DNA of 64,000 bases from an uncultured Bacteroidales bacterium (GTDB taxonomy: Bacteria; Bacteroidota; Bacteroidia; Bacteroidales; UBA932), in contig CALUST010000024.1 in NCBI GenBank assembly GCA_944323505.1, forward strand, positions 20,755 through 84,754, given 5' to 3'. The position numbers and the translations under genes were made by a program. Of the stretch, positions 29,319 through 51,927 are shown piece by piece (the stretch's first letter is position 1; the number at the start of each line of letters is the position of its first letter). A model generated the notes under the pieces. The model was not told where the DNA came from and made no database searches. It worked only from the letters and a program-made list of their open reading frames with translations.

Positions 29319-30578
29319 ATGAGTGAATTATTTACTCCTTATAAAATCGGCCCGCTCGAACTGAGGAACAGGACCATACGTTCAGCGGCGTTTGAAGGCA
29401 TGTGCGAGAACAACTCTCCTTCAAAGACGCTTTTTGATTATCATACGGCAGTCGCGAGAGGCGGCATAGGCATGACGACAATCGCATACGCGGCCGTATG
29501 CAGAAGCGGGCTGTCATTTGAAAGGCAGCTGTGGATGAGGGAGGAGATAGTACCTGAACTGAAAAGGCTGACCGACGCCATCCACGCCGAAGGTGCAAAA
29601 GCCTCCATACAGTTAGGACATTGTGGCAACATGTCCCACAAACGCATCTGCGGATGCACCCCTTTCGGGGCAAGCCGCGGATTCAACCTGTATTCCCCGA
29701 CTTTCGTCCACAAGATGAACCTCAAGGAGATAGACGATGTAGTGGAGGCATACGGCAATGCTGTCAGACTGGCAATCAAGGCCGGATTCGATGCCGTGGA
29801 AATCCATGCAGGACACGGCTATCTCATCTCGCAGTTCCTCTCCCCTTACACCAACCACAGGCAGGATGAGTACGGAGGCTCTCTTGACAACAGGATGAGG
29901 TTCATGAGAAGGTGCATGAAAGCGGTGACAGATGCAGGGAAAGGAAAGGTGGCGATATTCGTGAAGATGAACACCAGGGACGGGTTCAAGGGCGGTATGG
30001 AAATCGAAGAAAGCATTGAGGTCGCCAAGGAGCTGCAGAGATGCGGTGCAGACGCCCTTGTGCTCTCAGGCGGATTTGTCAGCCGCGCCCCAATGTATGT
30101 CATGAGAGGGCAGTTCCCCAAAAAGGCTATTGCTCATTATATGCCGATGAAGAGCCAATGGTGGCTTAAACTCGGCGTCATGATAGGCGGCAGGATAGTG
30201 TCGCCGACTGTACCGTTCAAGAGGCTGTACTTCCTTGAAGACGCGCTCAGATTCAGAAAAGCCCTGCCTGATATGCCTCTGGTGTATGTCGGAGGTGTCA
30301 CGACCCGCAAGGATGCAGACAAGGTCATCGACAGCGGATTCCAGATGCTGCAGATGGGACGGGCGGTCCTTGAGGACACTGACTTCGTCAACAAGATGAA
30401 GGCTGACGCGAACTGCTGCAGCGGATGCGAACACACCAATTTCTGCATAGGCAGGATGTATTCTCTGGAGATGGCCTGCCACAAGACATGCAAAGACATC
30501 ACGCCGGCACTGGAACGGGATGTGCAGAAGACCATCAGACAGAACGACAGGATGGAAAGACGCCTGGGCTACAAGTAG
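29319..30578 (+). CDS. NADH:flavin oxidoreductase (old yellow enzyme family), candidate steroid 5-beta-reductase
   Basis: RNRTIRSAAFEG, QLGHCG, EIHAGHGYLISQFLSP, DEYGGSLDNRMRF, C-terminal Cys cluster. Confidence 0.88.
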   Translation: MSELFTPYKIGPLELRNRTIRSAAFEGMCENNSPSKTLFDYHTAVARGGIGMTTIAYAAVCRSGLSFERQLWMREEIVPELKRLTDAIHAEGAKASIQLGHCGNMSHKRICGCTPFGASRGFNLYSPTFVHKMNLKEIDDVVEAYGNAVRLAIKAGFDAVEIHAGHGYLISQFLSPYTNHRQDEYGGSLDNRMRFMRRCMKAVTDAGKGKVAIFVKMNTRDGFKGGMEIEESIEVAKELQRCGADALVLSGGFVSRAPMYVMRGQFPKKAIAHYMPMKSQWWLKLGVMIGGRIVSPTVPFKRLYFLEDALRFRKALPDMPLVYVGGVTTRKDADKVIDSGFQMLQMGRAVLEDTDFVNKMKADANCCSGCEHTNFCIGRMYSLEMACHKTCKDITPALERDVQKTIRQNDRMERRLGYK

Positions 30579-30601
30579 CACGGGCAAAACGATACAAGAA
30601 T

Positions 30602-30918
30602 AAAAGGAGGGACGATCTGCCGCGCCGGCCATGGCCGGTGAGGAAAGTCCGGACAGGAAAGGGCACTTCACTGCGGAAAGCGCAGACGGGGGTAACTTCG
30701 TGGAACCTGTAACAGAAAACAACCGCATCTCCGGATGCAAGGGTGAAAACGTGAGGCAAGAGCTCACGACGGGCTGTGGCGACACACTCCGGGTACGGGA
30801 CTGAAGCCTGCAAGACCAAATATACTGACAGCCAAGGGCGGCCCGTCCGATGTCAGGGGGTAGGTTGCGAAGATAAATGGCAGAACAAAACAGAAACCGG
30901 CTTACGGTTCCTCCTTTT
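30602..30918 (+). ncRNA. rnpB: RNase P RNA, bacterial type A, lacking P18
   Basis: GAGGAAAGUCC (CR-I) and ACAGAAACCGGCUUAC (CR-V); P1 aaaaggagggac/gttcctcctttt; P2, P3 and P15-P17 pair as expected. Confidence 0.95.
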
Positions 30919-30962
30919 TATAAATGAGGCGCGCTGAAAAGGTGGTATTTAAAGCACACTTT

Positions 30963-31907
30963 TCAGTCGCCTTTTTTTGCTTCAATCTTCTTTCTCAATT
31001 CATAGGAATCGTGCAGCGGATAGCCTGCGTCCGAGACATCAAGCCATTCTTCGGCAAGGCCGTATTGACCGATGACATAAAATGCCACTGCCAGATTGTA
31101 TGCCGCACAGGAGCGTCTTTCCAGATTGCCGGTGTCTGTCTTTCCGAGCCAGATGGCGATGGCGTCATCCCACCTGTAGTCATAGGCAGCCATAATCGCG
31201 TCCAGCCAGTCGGAAGAACCTGTATCATAGTACATAAACGACAGCGTCTCAGCATTCCATCTCGGGAGGAACTGCCCCCCGGCAGTCCTGCCGGCCTCCC
31301 TGCCGGGAGCCTCCAATGAAGACAGCATCTTAGCCTCCAGTTCCCTGTCGGTCTCATTCCCGTCCGTATATGCCACCGGCTCACCTGTGGCTGTGCCCGT
31401 AAATACAAGGACCCTGTCATCCTTGTTCATCGAATCGTATACATACAGCGCCAATGAATACATCATCGACCCCTTGACAAGATATGCCGAATCCCTTACT
31501 GCAGGCGACCCGACCTTCTGAGGTGCCGATAACGAGATGTCGGAGATATCCGGCGAATCGAACACGAACACTACGTCACTGCCGGTCTCCATCAAGATAT
31601 TGAGGACCGAATCCCTTGACGAATAGTCGCCACCGGGATTTTTCTCGACATTGTAGACCGGTATCCTCATCTCGCCGCCGAAATATTCGCTTTCAAGCCT
31701 TTGGGCAAAGCCGTCGGCGACCGATGCTATGAAGAGCGAATCCTCATGCTTCCCGTCATCAAGATATGCCACGGAAAATGTCTTGTTTCCCAATTCAAGC
31801 CCGGACTTGGACGGGTATCTCAATTCTACCCTCATCAGATAGGACATCGGCCCGCATGAGACGAGCATCATGAGCGACAGGAGGGAAAAGACTAACTTCG
31901 TTTTCAT
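30963..31907 (-). CDS. DUF6340-like lipoprotein with C-terminal TPR-like helices
   Basis: Lipobox LVS|C; W.DAI.IW and AAYNLAVAFYVIG..A.EWL TPR-like tail. Confidence 0.65.
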   Translation of the reverse strand: MKTKLVFSLLSLMMLVSCGPMSYLMRVELRYPSKSGLELGNKTFSVAYLDDGKHEDSLFIASVADGFAQRLESEYFGGEMRIPVYNVEKNPGGDYSSRDSVLNILMETGSDVVFVFDSPDISDISLSAPQKVGSPAVRDSAYLVKGSMMYSLALYVYDSMNKDDRVLVFTGTATGEPVAYTDGNETDRELEAKMLSSLEAPGREAGRTAGGQFLPRWNAETLSFMYYDTGSSDWLDAIMAAYDYRWDDAIAIWLGKTDTGNLERRSCAAYNLAVAFYVIGQYGLAEEWLDVSDAGYPLHDSYELRKKIEAKKGD

Positions 31908-31931
31908 GGCATCAGCAATTTAAATCAATCG

Positions 31932-33266
31932 TCAGCAGAGGGCTACTGGCTCAGCAATCAGGTCATATTCATCCGCCCCCGTGATATGGACGGTCATGAA
32001 CTCCCCGACCAATGAATAAGGGTCAATACCGCCCAGCGCAGAGGAATCATACTTTACAAGAATCTCGCCGTCCACGTCGGGGCTTTCGAATTCGCTTCTG
32101 CAGACAAACACTCCGTCGGAATAACTGTCTATGATCACCTTTGTCTCAGTATCTACCCTTGACTGGTTATAGGCAAGGGATATGAGACTCTGCCTCTCCA
32201 TCAGTTCGTCCCATCTTGCCTGTTTCACCTCATCAGGAATATCATCAGGGAAATGGTCTGCACCGTATGTCCCCTCCTCTTCCGAGTACTTGAAGGCGCC
32301 GAGGCGTTCAAAGCGGGCCTCCCCGATGAAATCCAGCAGTTCCCTGAACTCTTCTTCCCCTTCTCCCGGATGGCCTACAATCATAGTGGTCCTCAAAACG
32401 ACTCCTGGCACCTTTTCCCTCATAGTACTTATGAGATTCCTGGTCCAGGCCCCGTCCACATTCCTGCGCATATTGGCAAGCACCTTGTCAGAAATATGCT
32501 GCAAAGGTATGTCCATATACCTGCAGACCTTCGGATTGACCGCCATCTGTTCCAGCACGTCCTCAGGGAAATCATCCGGATAGGAATAATGTATCCTTAT
32601 CCACTCAATCCCTTCGACTTCCGACAATCTCCCGAGGAGTTCAGCCAATGCACGCCGCCTGTACAAGTCCAGTCCGTAATAAGTCGTATCCTGGGCTATC
32701 ACTATCAGTTCCCTGACCCCCTTTGCGGCGAGCATGCGGGCCTCTTCCACGAGTTCCTCCATCGGCACGGAACGGTGCCTGCCACGGATGGCCGGTATGG
32801 CGCAATAAGAGCATCGCCTGTCACATCCCTCCGAAATCTTCAAAAAAGCATAATGTGAAGGCGTCGTAAGATGCCTTGACGGACTGTATTCCGCAGAAGG
32901 TTCCGCTCCAAGAGCCTTTATGAGAGGGGCGAAATCCCTTGCACCGAACCAGGCGTCAACCTCCGGAATCAGCCCCGGAAGGTCATCGGCATACCTCTGC
33001 GAGAGACAGCCGAAGACTATCACCTGCCCGACACGGCCGTCCTTTTTCCTTTCGACAGCCTGGAGAATCGCATCAACGGACTCTTCCTTGGCATCCCCGA
33101 TGAAACCACAGGTGTTCAGAAGCAGGACATCCACATCGGCATCCTCCTCAGACTCAGGGACTATCTCATAAAGTCCTTCAATCCGGGACAATATATGCTC
33201 CGTGTCAACCCTGTTCTTCGAACACCCGAGAGTGATGGCCTGCAGACGTCTGAGAGTATCCATCAT
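31932..33266 (-). CDS. rimO: Ribosomal protein S12 methylthiotransferase
   Basis: TLGCSKNRVD, LNTCGFI, radical-SAM CDRRCSYC, C-terminal TRAM-like FESPDVDG. Confidence 0.95.
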   Translation of the reverse strand: MMDTLRRLQAITLGCSKNRVDTEHILSRIEGLYEIVPESEEDADVDVLLLNTCGFIGDAKEESVDAILQAVERKKDGRVGQVIVFGCLSQRYADDLPGLIPEVDAWFGARDFAPLIKALGAEPSAEYSPSRHLTTPSHYAFLKISEGCDRRCSYCAIPAIRGRHRSVPMEELVEEARMLAAKGVRELIVIAQDTTYYGLDLYRRRALAELLGRLSEVEGIEWIRIHYSYPDDFPEDVLEQMAVNPKVCRYMDIPLQHISDKVLANMRRNVDGAWTRNLISTMREKVPGVVLRTTMIVGHPGEGEEEFRELLDFIGEARFERLGAFKYSEEEGTYGADHFPDDIPDEVKQARWDELMERQSLISLAYNQSRVDTETKVIIDSYSDGVFVCRSEFESPDVDGEILVKYDSSALGGIDPYSLVGEFMTVHITGADEYDLIAEPVALC

Positions 33267-48237: not shown

Positions 48238-50187
48238 GTGAGATACCTTATTCATAAGACATTAATGGCGATGGCGGCAATATGTGCCGCTATTGCCGCT
48301 TACGGACAAGGCCTCGGCCAGGCTCCGCTGCAGACTATAGACTGGACAGTATCTTCAGAACAGGTCGAAGGCAACACCTACAGGCTCGTGTTCTCGGGAG
48401 AGATTGAAGAGGGCTGGCACACATACGTGCTGGACAGCGAATGGTATCCTACGGACGTCATATTCGACACTCCTGCCGGATATTCACTTGAAGGCGATAC
48501 TTACGCCCTCACTGAGCCTGTGGACTTTGAAGGAGACCCGGTCTATTTCGACAGGATTGTCATCGCACAGGACATAAAAGTCGACACGACGGTGGCGACT
48601 GTATCCGGGGAACTGACCTGGATGTCGTGCACGGAAATCAACTGCGCCTCACCTGAATACCACAAATTCAGCATCAAGATAAAGAACACGGCTGCAGCAC
48701 AGGGAGAAATCTCTGCCGCGGACGAAGGCAAAGGCTTCAACTGGGGCATCATCATAGAGGCCATCCTGTGGGGATTTGCCGCCCTGCTCACCCCATGCGT
48801 ATTCCCAATGGTTCCTATGACCGTATCATTCTTCATGAAAGGCTCGTCATCCCCTGCCGCAGGCAGGTTCAAGGCAGCAATGTACGGTCTGTTCATCGTA
48901 TTGCTTTACACTGTCCCTATTTCTCTCATCATCCTGATTACAAGGATAGTCGGAGGAGACGCAGTGACTGCCGACATATTCAACTGGCTTGCGACGCACT
49001 GGATACCGAATATCATCTTCTTCATAGTATTCATGATATTCGCCGCGTCGTTCTTCGGGGCATTTGAGATCACTCTCCCGTCATCCATTGTCAACAAGAG
49101 CGACAAAGGAGCTGACAAAGGCGGGCTTGTCGGCATATTCTTCATGGCTCTCACCCTTGTGCTCGTGTCATTCTCCTGCACAGGACCGATTGTCGGCTCG
49201 GTACTCATCAAGGCCACCCAGGGAGAGTTCTGGGAGCCGATGGTGGCTATGCTGGCATTCTCTCTCGCATTTGCGATACCGTTCACCATACTTGCACTCT
49301 TCCCTTCCCTGCTGAAGAATCTTCCAAAGAGCGGGGGTTGGCTCAATTCCGTCAAAGTAGTGCTCGGATTCATTGAAGTCGCACTCGGATTCAAGTTCCT
49401 CAGCGTGGCAGACCAGACATACCATTGGGGTCTGCTTGACAGGGAGGTCTACCTTGCAATCTGGATTGTGACATTCTCGCTTCTCGGGCTGTACCTGCTC
49501 GGCAAGATCAGATTCGCCAATGACGACAAGGTCGAGCACATCTCGGTCAAGAGGCTGACACTCGCCATCGCGGTATTCTCTTTCGTGGTCTACATGATTC
49601 CGGGAATGTTCGGAGCGCCGCTGAAAGCCCTTTCTGGCTACCTGCCTCCTATCACCTCACAGGATTTCGTGCTCGGCTCAAACACAGGGAACACTGCGCC
49701 ACAGCAGGCGAACGGCAATCAAGGGGAATCTTCGAGGTTTGATCTCCACCTGCCGCTCGGTCTAAGCGGATACTTCACTCTTGAAGAGGGGCTTGAGGCG
49801 GCAAAAGAGACCGACAAGCCTGTATTCATAGATATTACGGGCCATGGATGCGTCAACTGCCGCGAGATGGAGTCCCGAGTATGGAGCGACCCTCAGGTGC
49901 TCGACATACTCAGGAATGACTACATCATCGTGGCTCTGTACACTGACGACAAGACCCGTCTCGAAGAAGACGAATGGGTGGAGACCGAGAACGGAGACAT
50001 GCTGAAAGACCTCGGAAGGGTCAACTCCTACATCGCAAGGACGCGGTTCGGAGTAAATGCCCAGCCGAATTATGTGCTGCTCAGTCCTGACGGGGAAATG
50101 CTGGTCCCGGTCAGAGGCTATGACCTCAGTATCCCGGGATTCGTAGAGTTCCTGCAGTCCGGCCTGGCCAAGATGCAGGAACAATAG
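48238..50187 (+). CDS. dsbD: Thiol:disulfide interchange protein DsbD
   Basis: N-domain CTEINC; TM Cys in LTPCVFP and FSCTGP; thioredoxin CVNC; GTG start. Confidence 0.9.
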   Translation: MRYLIHKTLMAMAAICAAIAAYGQGLGQAPLQTIDWTVSSEQVEGNTYRLVFSGEIEEGWHTYVLDSEWYPTDVIFDTPAGYSLEGDTYALTEPVDFEGDPVYFDRIVIAQDIKVDTTVATVSGELTWMSCTEINCASPEYHKFSIKIKNTAAAQGEISAADEGKGFNWGIIIEAILWGFAALLTPCVFPMVPMTVSFFMKGSSSPAAGRFKAAMYGLFIVLLYTVPISLIILITRIVGGDAVTADIFNWLATHWIPNIIFFIVFMIFAASFFGAFEITLPSSIVNKSDKGADKGGLVGIFFMALTLVLVSFSCTGPIVGSVLIKATQGEFWEPMVAMLAFSLAFAIPFTILALFPSLLKNLPKSGGWLNSVKVVLGFIEVALGFKFLSVADQTYHWGLLDREVYLAIWIVTFSLLGLYLLGKIRFANDDKVEHISVKRLTLAIAVFSFVVYMIPGMFGAPLKALSGYLPPITSQDFVLGSNTGNTAPQQANGNQGESSRFDLHLPLGLSGYFTLEEGLEAAKETDKPVFIDITGHGCVNCREMESRVWSDPQVLDILRNDYIIVALYTDDKTRLEEDEWVETENGDMLKDLGRVNSYIARTRFGVNAQPNYVLLSPDGEMLVPVRGYDLSIPGFVEFLQSGLAKMQEQ

Positions 50188-50190
50188 ACA

Positions 50191-51927
50191 CTACCTGAAC
50201 AGCAGTTCCATATCCTTTGACATGAGCCTGTCCGCGAGTCTTTCGGGGACAAAATGCCATTCACCGACAAGAGCCCTGTCTCCGATGACAGCAGGGTCTA
50301 TTGAGCCGTGCTCCTTGATATAGTCGTAGAGCAGTTCCCTGATTTCCGGATACCTTGCCTTGATCCTGACATCTATCGAATCTGTATCTATACCGGCTCC
50401 ATATCTCATGATACCGCCACCACCGCTTGCTCGATAGGAGGTCATGGCAACATTGTACACCCCGTCCATATCAAATGCGGAACCGTCGGCCATGGAACGG
50501 ATGACAACCCTCTCGCCTGCAGGTCTGGTGACATCAACATCGTACACAAGACCGCCGGCAGAGTCGAAATTGTAACTGCGGCCGACAAATGACCACCTCT
50601 TCAGCCCTGTCCGCGGATCAGGCTCATTCCTCATCATCAGAAGACGCTCGTCTCCCCTGCCGGAAACCGTATTTACCCAATAACGGTATGAATATTCCAG
50701 ATAATCCTTTATCTCCTTTCCTGTCATTTCGACCACATACAACTGGTTCTCGAAAGGATAGATAGTGAACAGGTCATTGTAGAGCAGAGTCCCGGGCGCG
50801 ACAGTGCCGTCAAAAGTCAGAGGCGCGGCAAATGACAGGTCAGCCTCTGGGACACTCAGAGAGATGGCATGAATAAGATTGACATAGTCACACATCCCCG
50901 TATACGCGTCCCTTGTCCTCAATTCGGTCTCCAATTCCCCGACAGGACGGAGGGTGAACTCCTTTACTGTCTCGAAATCAGAATGGAACTTGCTCTCCAT
51001 CGCGGCATCCACCTTATCCTTGTCGACAGGAATGAGCCCGGCCTCAAGCGACTTGGAAACGCATTTACCGTCTTTTATCTCCACTGTCACCGCTCCGTAT
51101 CCGACATTCCGGCAATGGCTTCCGGTATTTATCAGACAAATGCTGTCATTCTGCGCGATGAACGGCCTGTGGTCATGAGAGCATACCAGGAAATCCACGC
51201 CCTTGAGACTCTTGAAAAGATCCAGTCCCTGGCTTTCAAGCATGGTGCCGTCCCCGTTGCCTGTACCGGCATGGACAGCCACGATGACGATATGCGGGTG
51301 CTCCGTCTCAATGACATTGTCTACATAGTCCTGGACATAAGGCAGCAGGGACTCGAATGTCATCCCGCTCCACAGGCTGTATGAAAGCCAGTTCTTCATG
51401 TTCGGATTGGTGAATCCGAGTATCGCTATCCTTATCCCATGACGTCTCAGTATGACATAATCCTCAAAATACGGCTTCCCTGTATCATCGGAGACGGCAT
51501 TTGCCGCAAGGAACGGGGTCTTCATCTGCCTGACAAGCCTGTCATATACAGGATGACCTGTCTCGATGTCATGGTTGCCGACCACGACGGCATCATACTT
51601 CATATAGTCCGCCATCCTCGCATAGAGATGTGTGGAGACGGTATCCACATAGTTGAAATAATACGCCGCATTATCCCCCTGAAGGCAGTCTCCAGCATCA
51701 ACAAGAATGACATTGGACTCCCCGACCGCATTCCTGACACTGTCCACATACCACGACACGGACATCAGGGAATTGCGCGTCCCGTCACCGACATAGAGCG
51801 AATCGAAATAACGGCCGTGCACATCATTAGTAGTCAGCAGGCGGAAAGTGTAGGTCCCGTCTTTCGGACCGCAAGATGACAGCACAAGCAGTGCTGCCGC
51901 AAATAAAATGAAAGTCAGTTTTCTCAT
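50191..51927 (-). CDS. Bifunctional metallophosphatase / 5'-nucleotidase lipoprotein
   Basis: Lipobox LSS|C; TNDVHG, DAGDCLQG, GNHD, SHDH, YPFEN. Confidence 0.9.
   Translation of the reverse strand: MRKLTFILFAAALLVLSSCGPKDGTYTFRLLTTNDVHGRYFDSLYVGDGTRNSLMSVSWYVDSVRNAVGESNVILVDAGDCLQGDNAAYYFNYVDTVSTHLYARMADYMKYDAVVVGNHDIETGHPVYDRLVRQMKTPFLAANAVSDDTGKPYFEDYVILRRHGIRIAILGFTNPNMKNWLSYSLWSGMTFESLLPYVQDYVDNVIETEHPHIVIVAVHAGTGNGDGTMLESQGLDLFKSLKGVDFLVCSHDHRPFIAQNDSICLINTGSHCRNVGYGAVTVEIKDGKCVSKSLEAGLIPVDKDKVDAAMESKFHSDFETVKEFTLRPVGELETELRTRDAYTGMCDYVNLIHAISLSVPEADLSFAAPLTFDGTVAPGTLLYNDLFTIYPFENQLYVVEMTGKEIKDYLEYSYRYWVNTVSGRGDERLLMMRNEPDPRTGLKRWSFVGRSYNFDSAGGLVYDVDVTRPAGERVVIRSMADGSAFDMDGVYNVAMTSYRASGGGGIMRYGAGIDTDSIDVRIKARYPEIRELLYDYIKEHGSIDPAVIGDRALVGEWHFVPERLADRLMSKDMELLFR

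What the first reader, a model, noticed from the sequence alone, without database searches (positions are those of the whole stretch)
30855..30905. RNase P RNA lacks helix P18 entirely
SEEN: after P15 (GACC/GGUU-GC) the sequence goes straight to GA-AGAUAAAU-GGCAGA (P2 3' strand). In E. coli M1 RNA the same interval contains UUGA, the ~20-nt P18 hairpin, then CUAGAUGAAU. P19 is also absent and P12 is short (total about 317 nt), while P16/P17 and the L17-P6 pseudoknot (GCCC/GGGC) are intact. ESTABLISHED: P18 with its GNRA loop docking on P8 is near-universal in bacterial type A RNAs; natural loss is known in Chlorobium. INFERENCE: an independent P18 loss in a Bacteroidales lineage, perhaps compensated by the RnpA protein.
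Basis: partly seen in the sequence, partly recalled or inferred. Interest (0 to 1): 0.55.

Follow-up and report, generated by a model that had tools for sequence, protein, structure and literature searches.

The report
P18-less RNase P RNA, lineage-wide
The RNase P ribozyme gene of this uncultured gut Bacteroidales bacterium really lacks the bracing helix P18, but so do its whole genus, most of its family and many other Bacteroidia, so it is an ordinary member of a widespread and little-described natural variant rather than a one-off.

Summary
Window 30604-30920 (+) is the genome's only rnpB: Rfam RF00010, 192 bits, full length. All 24 model positions of P18 are replaced by zero bases. P19 is absent, P12 is short, and the P6 pseudoknot is intact and covaries.

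It is not an assembly artefact and not specific to this genome.
- All 16 examined species of the genus (probably Candidatus Cryptobacteroides) show the same junction.
- So do 31 of 37 sampled genera of the family.
- So do 17 of 82 other examined families of the order.
- So do at least 20 of about 58 sampled families in other orders of the class.
- One genus is polymorphic, so the loss is recurrent.

P18 loss is already known in Chlorobium, Aquificales and CPR bacteria. I found no paper describing it in Bacteroidales.

The RnpA-compensation idea is not supported: RnpA is an ordinary 132 aa, and frame lengths do not track P18 status.

One lead emerged. P18-bearing RNAs almost always carry the consensus UAAC loop on P8, whereas P18-less ones almost always carry a GAAA/GNRA-like loop. 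Some lineages with the changed loop keep a P18 that has no GNRA loop. This suggests a remodelled L8-P4 contact makes L18-P8 dispensable. The association is seen but not statistically established.

The parts
30604..30920 (+). rnpB, bacterial type A RNase P RNA, 317 nt, lacking P18 and P19
   Evidence: RF00010 192.1 bits, E 5.5e-62, model 1-367. It is the only match in the genome.
30640..30652 (+). CR-I / P4 5' strand (GAGGAAAGUCCGG)
   Evidence: Aligned letter for letter to the Rfam consensus. Coordinates.
30661..30664 (+). P6 5' strand (GGGC)
   Evidence: Pairs with 30841-30844. 164-165 of 166 relatives form standard pairs, with compensatory changes.
30671..30685 (+). P8 hairpin with a GAAAG loop (L8) in place of the consensus UAACG
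   Evidence: A GAAA-type L8 is found in nearly all P18-less relatives, and UAAC in nearly all P18-bearing ones.
30686..30701 (+). P9 hairpin with a GUAA loop (L9, partner of P1)
   Evidence: cmscan alignment; coordinates.
30722..30738 (+). Short P12 (5-6 bp plus tetraloop)
   Evidence: cmscan alignment shows 8 of the model's P12 positions deleted.
30750..30791 (+). P13 and P14 hairpins (type A specificity domain)
   Evidence: cmscan alignment; coordinates.
30814..30868 (+). P15 (GACC / GGUU-GC) enclosing P16/P17, L17 (GCCC 30841-30844) and the GGU-containing internal loop
   Evidence: cmscan alignment.
30869..30870 (+). Junction where P18 would lie: two bases (GA) in place of about 24
   Evidence: Model positions 280-303 are aligned to 0 bases. 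The same 6-7-nt spacing appears in all P18-less relatives.
30871..30884 (+). J18/2 (AGAUAAAU) and the P2 3' strand
   Evidence: cmscan alignment.
30885..30889 (+). 5-nt linker where P19 would lie
   Evidence: 12 model positions deleted. There are 10 nt between AGAUAAAUG and ACAGAA, against 20-30 nt in P19-bearing relatives.
30890..30905 (+). CR-V / P4 3' strand (ACAGAAACCGGCUUAC). The genus-specific A at 30896 faces A at 30653.

Best explanation
This is the functional, single-copy type A RNase P RNA of an uncultured gut Bacteroidales bacterium. Record titles of the nearest genomes name Candidatus Cryptobacteroides. The peripheral helix P18 was deleted cleanly in an ancestor shared with most of the family, and P19 was lost later within that clade.

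Shown: the catalytic core (P1-P5, P15 with its GGU loop, P6) and the specificity domain (P7-P14) are intact.

Inferred: the L18-P8 strut between the two domains is gone. Domain orientation must therefore rest on the remaining contacts L8-P4 and L9-P1, plus the ordinary RnpA protein.

Inferred, about 45% likely: the loss became tolerable because the loop of P8 had first changed from the consensus UAAC pentaloop to a GAAA/GNRA-like loop. That change would remodel, and probably strengthen, the L8-P4 contact. The constraint on L18 and then on the whole of P18 would then relax, and P18 was deleted repeatedly in different lineages.
For: - Full-length RF00010 match with conserved CR-I and CR-V and exactly zero bases at P18.
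- Only one rnpB in the genome. rnpA is present with yidD.
- P6 covariation.
- The same junction appears in all 16 examined species of the genus and in 31 of 37 genera of the family. It also appears in 17 of 82 other examined families of the order, in at least 20 families of other orders, and in more than 119 public genomes.
- An rnpB tree built without the P18/P19 columns needs at least 7 changes of state, 4 of them forced by well-supported branches. The main family clade of 64 P18-less rows has 98% support. Genus g46 holds both states.
- L8 table, 307 sequences: P18-/non-UAAC 180, P18-/UAAC 5, P18+/UAAC 105, P18+/non-UAAC 17.
- P18-less RNAs from MAGs labelled Desulfurellales and Aquificales, and from an unclassified bacterium, also carry GAAA/GCAA L8.
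- Read by eye, all 105 UAAC-type P18+ RNAs have a GNRA L18. About 6 of 16 non-UAAC P18+ RNAs have non-GNRA L18 loops (UUGU, UUUU, UGAA and others).
- Published experiments show that either L8-P4 or L18-P8 alone can hold the domain orientation, and that L8-P4 is the more important in vivo (PMC8457005).
Against:
- The L8 association is strongly structured by phylogeny. The independent-pairs test found only 4-5 well-supported contrasts and is not significant (p about 0.25-0.5).
- Saprospiraceae-type RNAs lack P18 yet keep UAAC L8 (5 sequences).
- Another class of the phylum (families f167 and f174) lacks P18 but instead has P8 lengthened by 17-49 nt.
- A 300-nt RNA tree is not a species tree, and it does not recover the family as one group.
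- That a GAAA-type L8 docks more strongly on P4 is my inference. It has not been measured.
Confidence: 0.85

Rival explanations
1. Assembly or binning artefact: a local deletion at 30868-30871 removed P18 from an otherwise normal gene.
For: The genome is a 49-contig, 90%-complete MAG.
Against: The same P18-less junction, with sequence divergence around it, occurs in all examined congeners, in 31 genera of the family and in more than 100 independent public assemblies, including single-contig genomes.
Confidence: 0.01
2. The loss of P18 is compensated by the protein subunit RnpA.
For: In general, protein can substitute for RNA tertiary struts. Deletion of P18 in E. coli RNA is far less harmful with C5 protein or at high salt (PMC5839562 and PMC8457005).
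Against: RnpA here is 132 aa with a full Pfam PF00825 match and no extra domain. Frame lengths in 136 family genomes overlap completely between P18+ and P18- genera, and some P18- genera have frames of only 104 aa. Residue-level adaptation was not tested.
Confidence: 0.1
3. P18 loss is simply neutral or mildly deleterious drift in holoenzyme-dependent cells. On this view the L8 difference is phylogenetic inertia with no causal link.
For: The independent-contrast test is not significant. Saprospiraceae-type RNAs lost P18 with UAAC L8. In vivo, an L18 mutant still partly complements (PMC8457005).
Against: None of the 86 P18-less RNAs in the order sample has UAAC L8, against 70 of 80 P18+ ones. 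The same holds in other orders and in three lineages outside the class. Non-GNRA L18 loops are seen only on the non-UAAC L8 background.
Confidence: 0.35
4. The rnpB is a decaying pseudogene, and tRNA 5' processing is done by another enzyme.
For: The RNA is short (317 nt) and lacks two helices. Its P4-terminal pair is an A.A mismatch in this genus.
Against: All universally conserved core segments match the consensus. P6 and other helices covary across 166 relatives. rnpA is retained. The same architecture persists across dozens of genera. I did not search the genome for protein-only RNase P.
Confidence: 0.02

Closest known systems
Chlorobium RNase P RNA (type A variant without P18; listed as structure type 'A5' for Chlorobium limicola in the supplement of PMC12974513)
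   Same: Bacterial type A architecture with P18 deleted and the rest of the catalytic and specificity domains kept. GTDB places it in the same phylum.
   Different: The loss here is independent, because most Bacteroidia keep P18. The unnamed other-class families of the phylum that I examined (f167, f174; possibly Chlorobia, which I could not verify) have P8 lengthened by 17-49 nt rather than a GAAA L8. The RNA here also lacks P19.
Aquificales (Hydrogenothermaceae, Desulfurobacteriaceae) RNase P RNAs lacking P18 (Marszalkowski et al. 2006, cited in PMC4227106 and PMC8457005)
   Same: Natural type A RNAs without P18 that are catalytically competent. An Aquificales-labelled MAG in my scan also has a GAAA L8.
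   Different: Those are thermophiles in which a strengthened L9-P1 contact (GYAA loop on a G-C tandem) was proposed as the compensation. The organism here is a mesophilic gut anaerobe, and the consistent change is in L8.
E. coli M1 RNA with P18 deleted or L18 mutated (Haas et al. 1994; Pomeranz Krummel and Altman 1999; PMC5839562)
   Same: The same structural lesion: no L18-P8 strut.
   Different: The engineered deletion sits in a UAAC-L8 background. It costs up to about 700-fold in kapp for the RNA alone and is rescued by high salt or Mg2+. The natural RNA has evolved with the loss.
Reduced RNase P RNAs of CPR/Patescibacteria (bioRxiv 10.1101/2020.03.05.979740)
   Same: Type A derivatives missing P18. 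[quoted passage not shown]
   Different: The CPR RNAs also lack P13/P14, and sometimes P12 and the UGG motif. Here only P18 and P19 are missing.

Membership tests
Bacterial RNase P RNA, type A (Rfam RF00010) | Covariance-model score above the curated gathering threshold over the full model | tested here: met
   192.1 bits against a threshold of 100 bits; model 1-367.
Bacterial RNase P RNA, type A (Rfam RF00010) | Conserved P4 strands (CR-I GAGGAAAGUCC and CR-V ACAGAAnCCGGCUUA) | tested here: met
   Both are present at 30640-30652 and 30890-30905. One genus-specific A.A occurs at the terminal pair.
Bacterial RNase P RNA, type A (Rfam RF00010) | P15-P16-P17 arm with the GGU internal loop and the L17-P6 pseudoknot (type A, not type B) | tested here: met
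   cmscan alignment. P6 forms standard pairs in 164-165 of 166 sequences, with covariation.
Bacterial RNase P RNA, type A (Rfam RF00010) | Specificity domain with P13/P14 | tested here: met
   Both hairpins align at 30750-30791.
Bacterial RNase P RNA, type A (Rfam RF00010) | P18 hairpin with a GNRA loop docking on P8 (typical of type A but not obligatory) | tested here: not met
   Zero bases aligned to model positions 280-303.
Bacterial RNase P RNA, type A (Rfam RF00010) | Partner protein RnpA encoded in the genome | tested here: met
   PF00825 match of 58.1 bits; 132-aa ORF upstream of yidD.
Bacterial RNase P RNA, type A (Rfam RF00010) | Pre-tRNA 5' cleavage activity | not testable with these tools
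Naturally P18-less type A RNAs (Chlorobium 'A5' / Aquificales kind) | P15 3' strand joined directly to J18/2 with no hairpin, in a whole clade rather than one sequence | tested here: met
   A spacing of 6-7 nt in the genus, in 31 genera of the family and in many other families.
Naturally P18-less type A RNAs (Chlorobium 'A5' / Aquificales kind) | Common descent with the Chlorobium or Aquificales loss | tested here: not met
   P18 is retained in 65 of 82 other examined families of the order and in most families examined in other orders, and one genus is polymorphic. The losses in this order are therefore separate events.

The most novel reading that the evidence does not exclude
In Bacteroidia, and perhaps in bacteria generally, loss of P18 is contingent on a prior switch of the P8 loop from the consensus UAAC pentaloop to a GNRA-like loop. 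That switch re-engineers the L8-P4 strut. Extant lineages would then preserve the whole pathway. First, UAAC L8 with a GNRA L18. Second, GAAA L8 with a GNRA L18. Third, GAAA L8 with a P18 whose loop no longer docks. Last, no P18. This would be a natural, many-times-replicated series of compensated loss of an RNA tertiary contact, open to test by loop swaps.
Probability: 0.4. Interest if true: 0.55.

Novelty: new member of a known kind. Interest (0 to 1): 0.35.

Why it matters
On its own the window adds one more natural P18-less RNase P RNA, and that kind has been known since 1994.

What the follow-up adds is scale. P18 is missing from most of a large gut family, from about a fifth of the examined families of the order, and from roughly a third of sampled families elsewhere in the class. 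The recent literature I could read still names only Chlorobium and Aquificales as clades that lost P18.

The many independent losses, the within-genus polymorphism and the tight link to the L8 loop type give RNase P structural biologists a ready comparative data set. It bears on how interdomain struts of a large ribozyme substitute for one another.

For annotation, it explains the consistently low RF00010 scores (165-230 bits) of these lineages.

Tried and rejected
- Classic papers: Haas and Brown 1998, Haas et al. 1994 and Marszalkowski et al. 2006 are not held in the library. Their content is cited only through later papers.
- A strict junction pattern scanned across the phylum proved uninformative outside the class. 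The draw was dominated by other classes whose junction sequence differs, so I do not use its 6/401 tally as a frequency.
- Regex anchoring of the P15 3' strand misplaced three P18-bearing RNAs (f59, f77, f139). These were corrected by eye. Alignment-based spacing misplaced two more (L143, L357), corrected.
- I tested whether the P4 terminal base pair covaries with the L8 type, as a receptor change would. It does not: G-C and A-U occur in both groups.
- The independent-pairs test of P18 against L8 is underpowered and not significant.
- My automatic hairpin finder under-called GNRA L18 loops in stems with mismatches. The L18 counts were read by eye from the sequences printed.
- Genome G793 (locus L327) is flagged unpublished.
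- I did not search for protein-only RNase P.

Full report
**What is at the locus**

cmscan against Rfam finds one family in window 29500-32000. It is RF00010 (bacterial RNase P RNA, class A) at 30604-30920 on the + strand: 192.1 bits against a threshold of 100, E 5.5e-62, covering model positions 1-367.

In the alignment the P15 3' strand (GGUUGC, 30863-30868) is followed by a gap marked *[24]* in the model and *[0]* in the sequence. So the whole P18 hairpin is replaced by nothing. The sequence continues GA, then AGAUAAAUG, then GCAGA (J18/2 and the P2 3' strand).

- Twelve further model positions between P2 3' and P4 3' are deleted, so P19 is absent.
- P12 is reduced to a 5-6-bp stem with a tetraloop.
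- P3, CR-I/P4, P5, P7-P11, P13, P14, P15-P17 and CR-V are all present.
Its second pair alternates between A-U (100 sequences) and G-C (59).

**Artefact?**

The window lies on contig C24 of a 1.93-Mb, 49-contig, 90%-complete assembly that has this single rnpB. Comparative data make this unnecessary, as the next section shows.

**How far the loss extends**

I extracted rnpB from relatives and measured two spacings: GGGGUAGG (end of the P16/P15 loop) to AGAUAAAUG, and AGAUAAAUG to ACAGAA.

P18-bearing RNAs in this order almost always have exactly 30 nt in the first interval, holding a hairpin with a GNRA loop. P18-less RNAs have 6-7 nt.

| Group examined | P18 absent | P18 present |
|---|---|---|
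| Species of the window's genus (g1) | all 16 (all also lack P19) | 0 |
| Genera of the family (f1), 37 sampled | 31 genera | 5 genera (g18, g28, g31, g35, g52) |
| Genus g46 (mixed) | 3 of 8 species | 5 of 8 species |
| Other families of the order, 82 examined, one genome each | 17 families | 65 families |
| Families in other orders of the class, about 58 sampled | at least 20 families | most of the rest examined |

- The 17 P18-less families of the order are f7, f10, f12, f25, f28, f31, f36, f39, f42, f46, f69, f78, f90, f99, f106, f127 and f148.
- About 56 families of the order were not examined. They all scored above 236 bits, higher than any P18-less RNA seen (at most 230 bits).
- The P18-less families elsewhere in the class are f155, f202, f204, f205, f207, f209, f210, f216, f218, f223, part of f224, f231, f235, f237, f240, f241, f244, f245, f246 and f247.

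All 80 loci returned lie in an rnpB context, and 72 have both flanking hallmarks.

Their record titles name:
- Candidatus Cryptobacteroides (several), Alistipes sp. CAG:514, Rikenellaceae and many 'Bacteroidales bacterium' MAGs from rumen and gut;
- Saprospiraceae, Flavobacteriales, Cryomorphaceae, Chitinophaga, Sediminibacterium and Prolixibacteraceae;
- a few MAGs labelled Desulfurellales or Aquificales.

The window's rnpB is 75-77% identical to the records named Cryptobacteroides. Its identity to the anonymous same-genus genomes is about the same, 75-82%. I could not verify the family name.

**Number of events**

A maximum-likelihood tree of 166 rnpB sequences, built without the P18 and P19 columns (301 columns), needs at least 7 changes of the P18 state. 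Well-supported branches alone force 4. Shuffled labels need about 56.

The main P18-less part of the family (64 rows, 28 genera, including the window) is one group with 98% SH-aLRT support. Within g46 the P18-less species fall in two places among P18-bearing ones.

This gene tree is short and does not recover the family as a whole, so the counts are rough. Removing the P8 columns raises the estimate to 13. Even so, the within-genus polymorphism and the retention of a canonical P18 in five genera of the family show that the loss is recurrent, not a single old event.

**What is known**

[quoted passage not shown] It also states that L8-P4 is more crucial in vivo than L18-P8, and that either contact alone can maintain domain orientation (PMC8457005).
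- All identified Aquificales RNase P RNAs lack P18 (PMC4227106).
- Deleting P18 from full-size E. coli RNA lowers kapp almost 700-fold (PMC5839562).
- A 2026 survey treats P18 as a bacterial expansion that makes an A-minor contact with P8, and it lists Chlorobium limicola as structure type A5 (PMC12974513).
- Four full-text searches found no paper that describes P18 loss in Bacteroidales or other Bacteroidia. The classic surveys by Haas, Brown and Pace are not held, so an early mention cannot be excluded.

**RnpA**

The genome encodes one RnpA (PF00825, 58.1 bits). The ORF is 132 aa and is followed by yidD, the usual arrangement.

Across 136 genomes of the family, stop-to-stop frames around the domain measure 115-156 aa in P18-bearing genera and 104-189 aa in P18-less ones, with full overlap. 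There is no sign of an extension tied to the loss. Residue-level adaptation was not examined.

**A lead: the loop of P8**

I compared consensus sequences of P18-bearing and P18-less RNAs. The only strongly conserved columns that differ, apart from P18 itself, lie in the loop of P8.

- P18-bearing RNAs carry the pentaloop UAAC(G/A), which is also the Rfam consensus.
- P18-less RNAs carry GAAA(G/U) or GAAA.

In the order sample, none of the 86 P18-less RNAs has UAAC, against 70 of 80 P18-bearing ones. After adding the class sample and the named loci (307 sequences, states curated), the table is:

| | L8 not UAAC | L8 UAAC |
|---|---|---|
| P18 absent | 180 | 5 |
| P18 present | 17 | 105 |

- The five exceptions are all Saprospiraceae-type RNAs.
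- P18-less RNAs from three lineages outside the class also have GAAA or GCAA in L8. These are MAGs labelled Desulfurellales and Aquificales, and an unclassified bacterium.
- Two families of another class of the phylum (f167, three genera, and f174) lack P18 and instead have P8 lengthened by 17-49 nt. A third (f175) has P18 and UAAC.
- Among P18-bearing RNAs, all 105 with UAAC L8 have a GNRA L18 when read by eye. About 6 of the 16 with another L8 have an L18 that is not GNRA: UGAA in one g46 species, UUGU in f59, UUUU in f226, and others in f97 and f157.

These look like intermediates. The order of events they suggest is: L8 changes, then L18 loses its docking loop, then P18 is deleted.

Because L8-P4 and L18-P8 are the two major interdomain struts and one suffices (PMC8457005), the simplest mechanistic reading is that a GNRA-like L8 gives a contact on P4 good enough to make L18-P8 dispensable.

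This is inference.
- The association is confounded by relatedness. The independent-pairs test found only 4-5 well-supported contrasts, and L8 went the same way in 2-3 of them and never the opposite way (p about 0.25-0.5).
- No receptor change in P4 accompanies the loop change.
- The Saprospiraceae exception shows the switch is not obligatory.

**Verdict**

- The interpretation as an independent natural loss is right in kind but wrong in scope, because the trait is lineage-wide and recurrent.
- The RnpA idea is unsupported.
- The feature is a new member of a known kind (P18-less type A RNase P RNA).
- Its individual interest is modest. The breadth of the loss in Bacteroidia and the L8 correlation are the parts worth a specialist's attention.

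Noticed in passing
window 30653 and 30896: The pair that closes P4 next to P5 (CCGG-G / C-CCGG in most relatives, G-C or A-U) is an A.A mismatch in all 16 examined species of the genus, and in 50 of 185 P18-less sequences overall.
   Followed up: partly
window 30934-30978: An 8-bp inverted repeat (CTGAAAAG ... CTTTTCAG) is followed by TCGCC and seven T, 14 nt after the 3' end of rnpB. It may be the terminator. The consensus scan did not list it because its loop is 17 nt.
   Followed up: partly
G146:C29:27913-28252 and 50024-50410 (loci L087, L045): One genome of genus g39 has two full-length rnpB matches (195.9 and 221.8 bits) 22 kb apart on one contig. Only the first was analysed; it is P18-less with P19.
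   Followed up: no
L389, L390, L391 (family f167) and L392 (f174), another class of the phylum: These P18-less RNase P RNAs have P8 lengthened by 17-49 nt. L392 also has an insertion of about 150 nt in P12.
   Followed up: partly
G255:C3:44637-44831 and G293:C168:28332-28525: Two families of the order (f82, f120) give only fragmentary RF00010 matches (model 111-207 and 223-303, 21-72 bits) in 95-99%-complete genomes. Their rnpB may be very divergent or interrupted.
   Followed up: no
L386 (G729, family f211, 0.5-Mb genome): A tiny-genome member of the class, presumably an insect endosymbiont, keeps P18 as an A+U-only hairpin with a GUAA loop and keeps UAACG in L8.
   Followed up: no
family f1, P19 column: P19 is gained or lost independently of P18. 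Genera g31, g18, g52 and g35 have P18 but no P19. Many genera have P19 but no P18. Genera g1, g20, g33, g38, g49, g51 and g53 have neither.
   Followed up: partly
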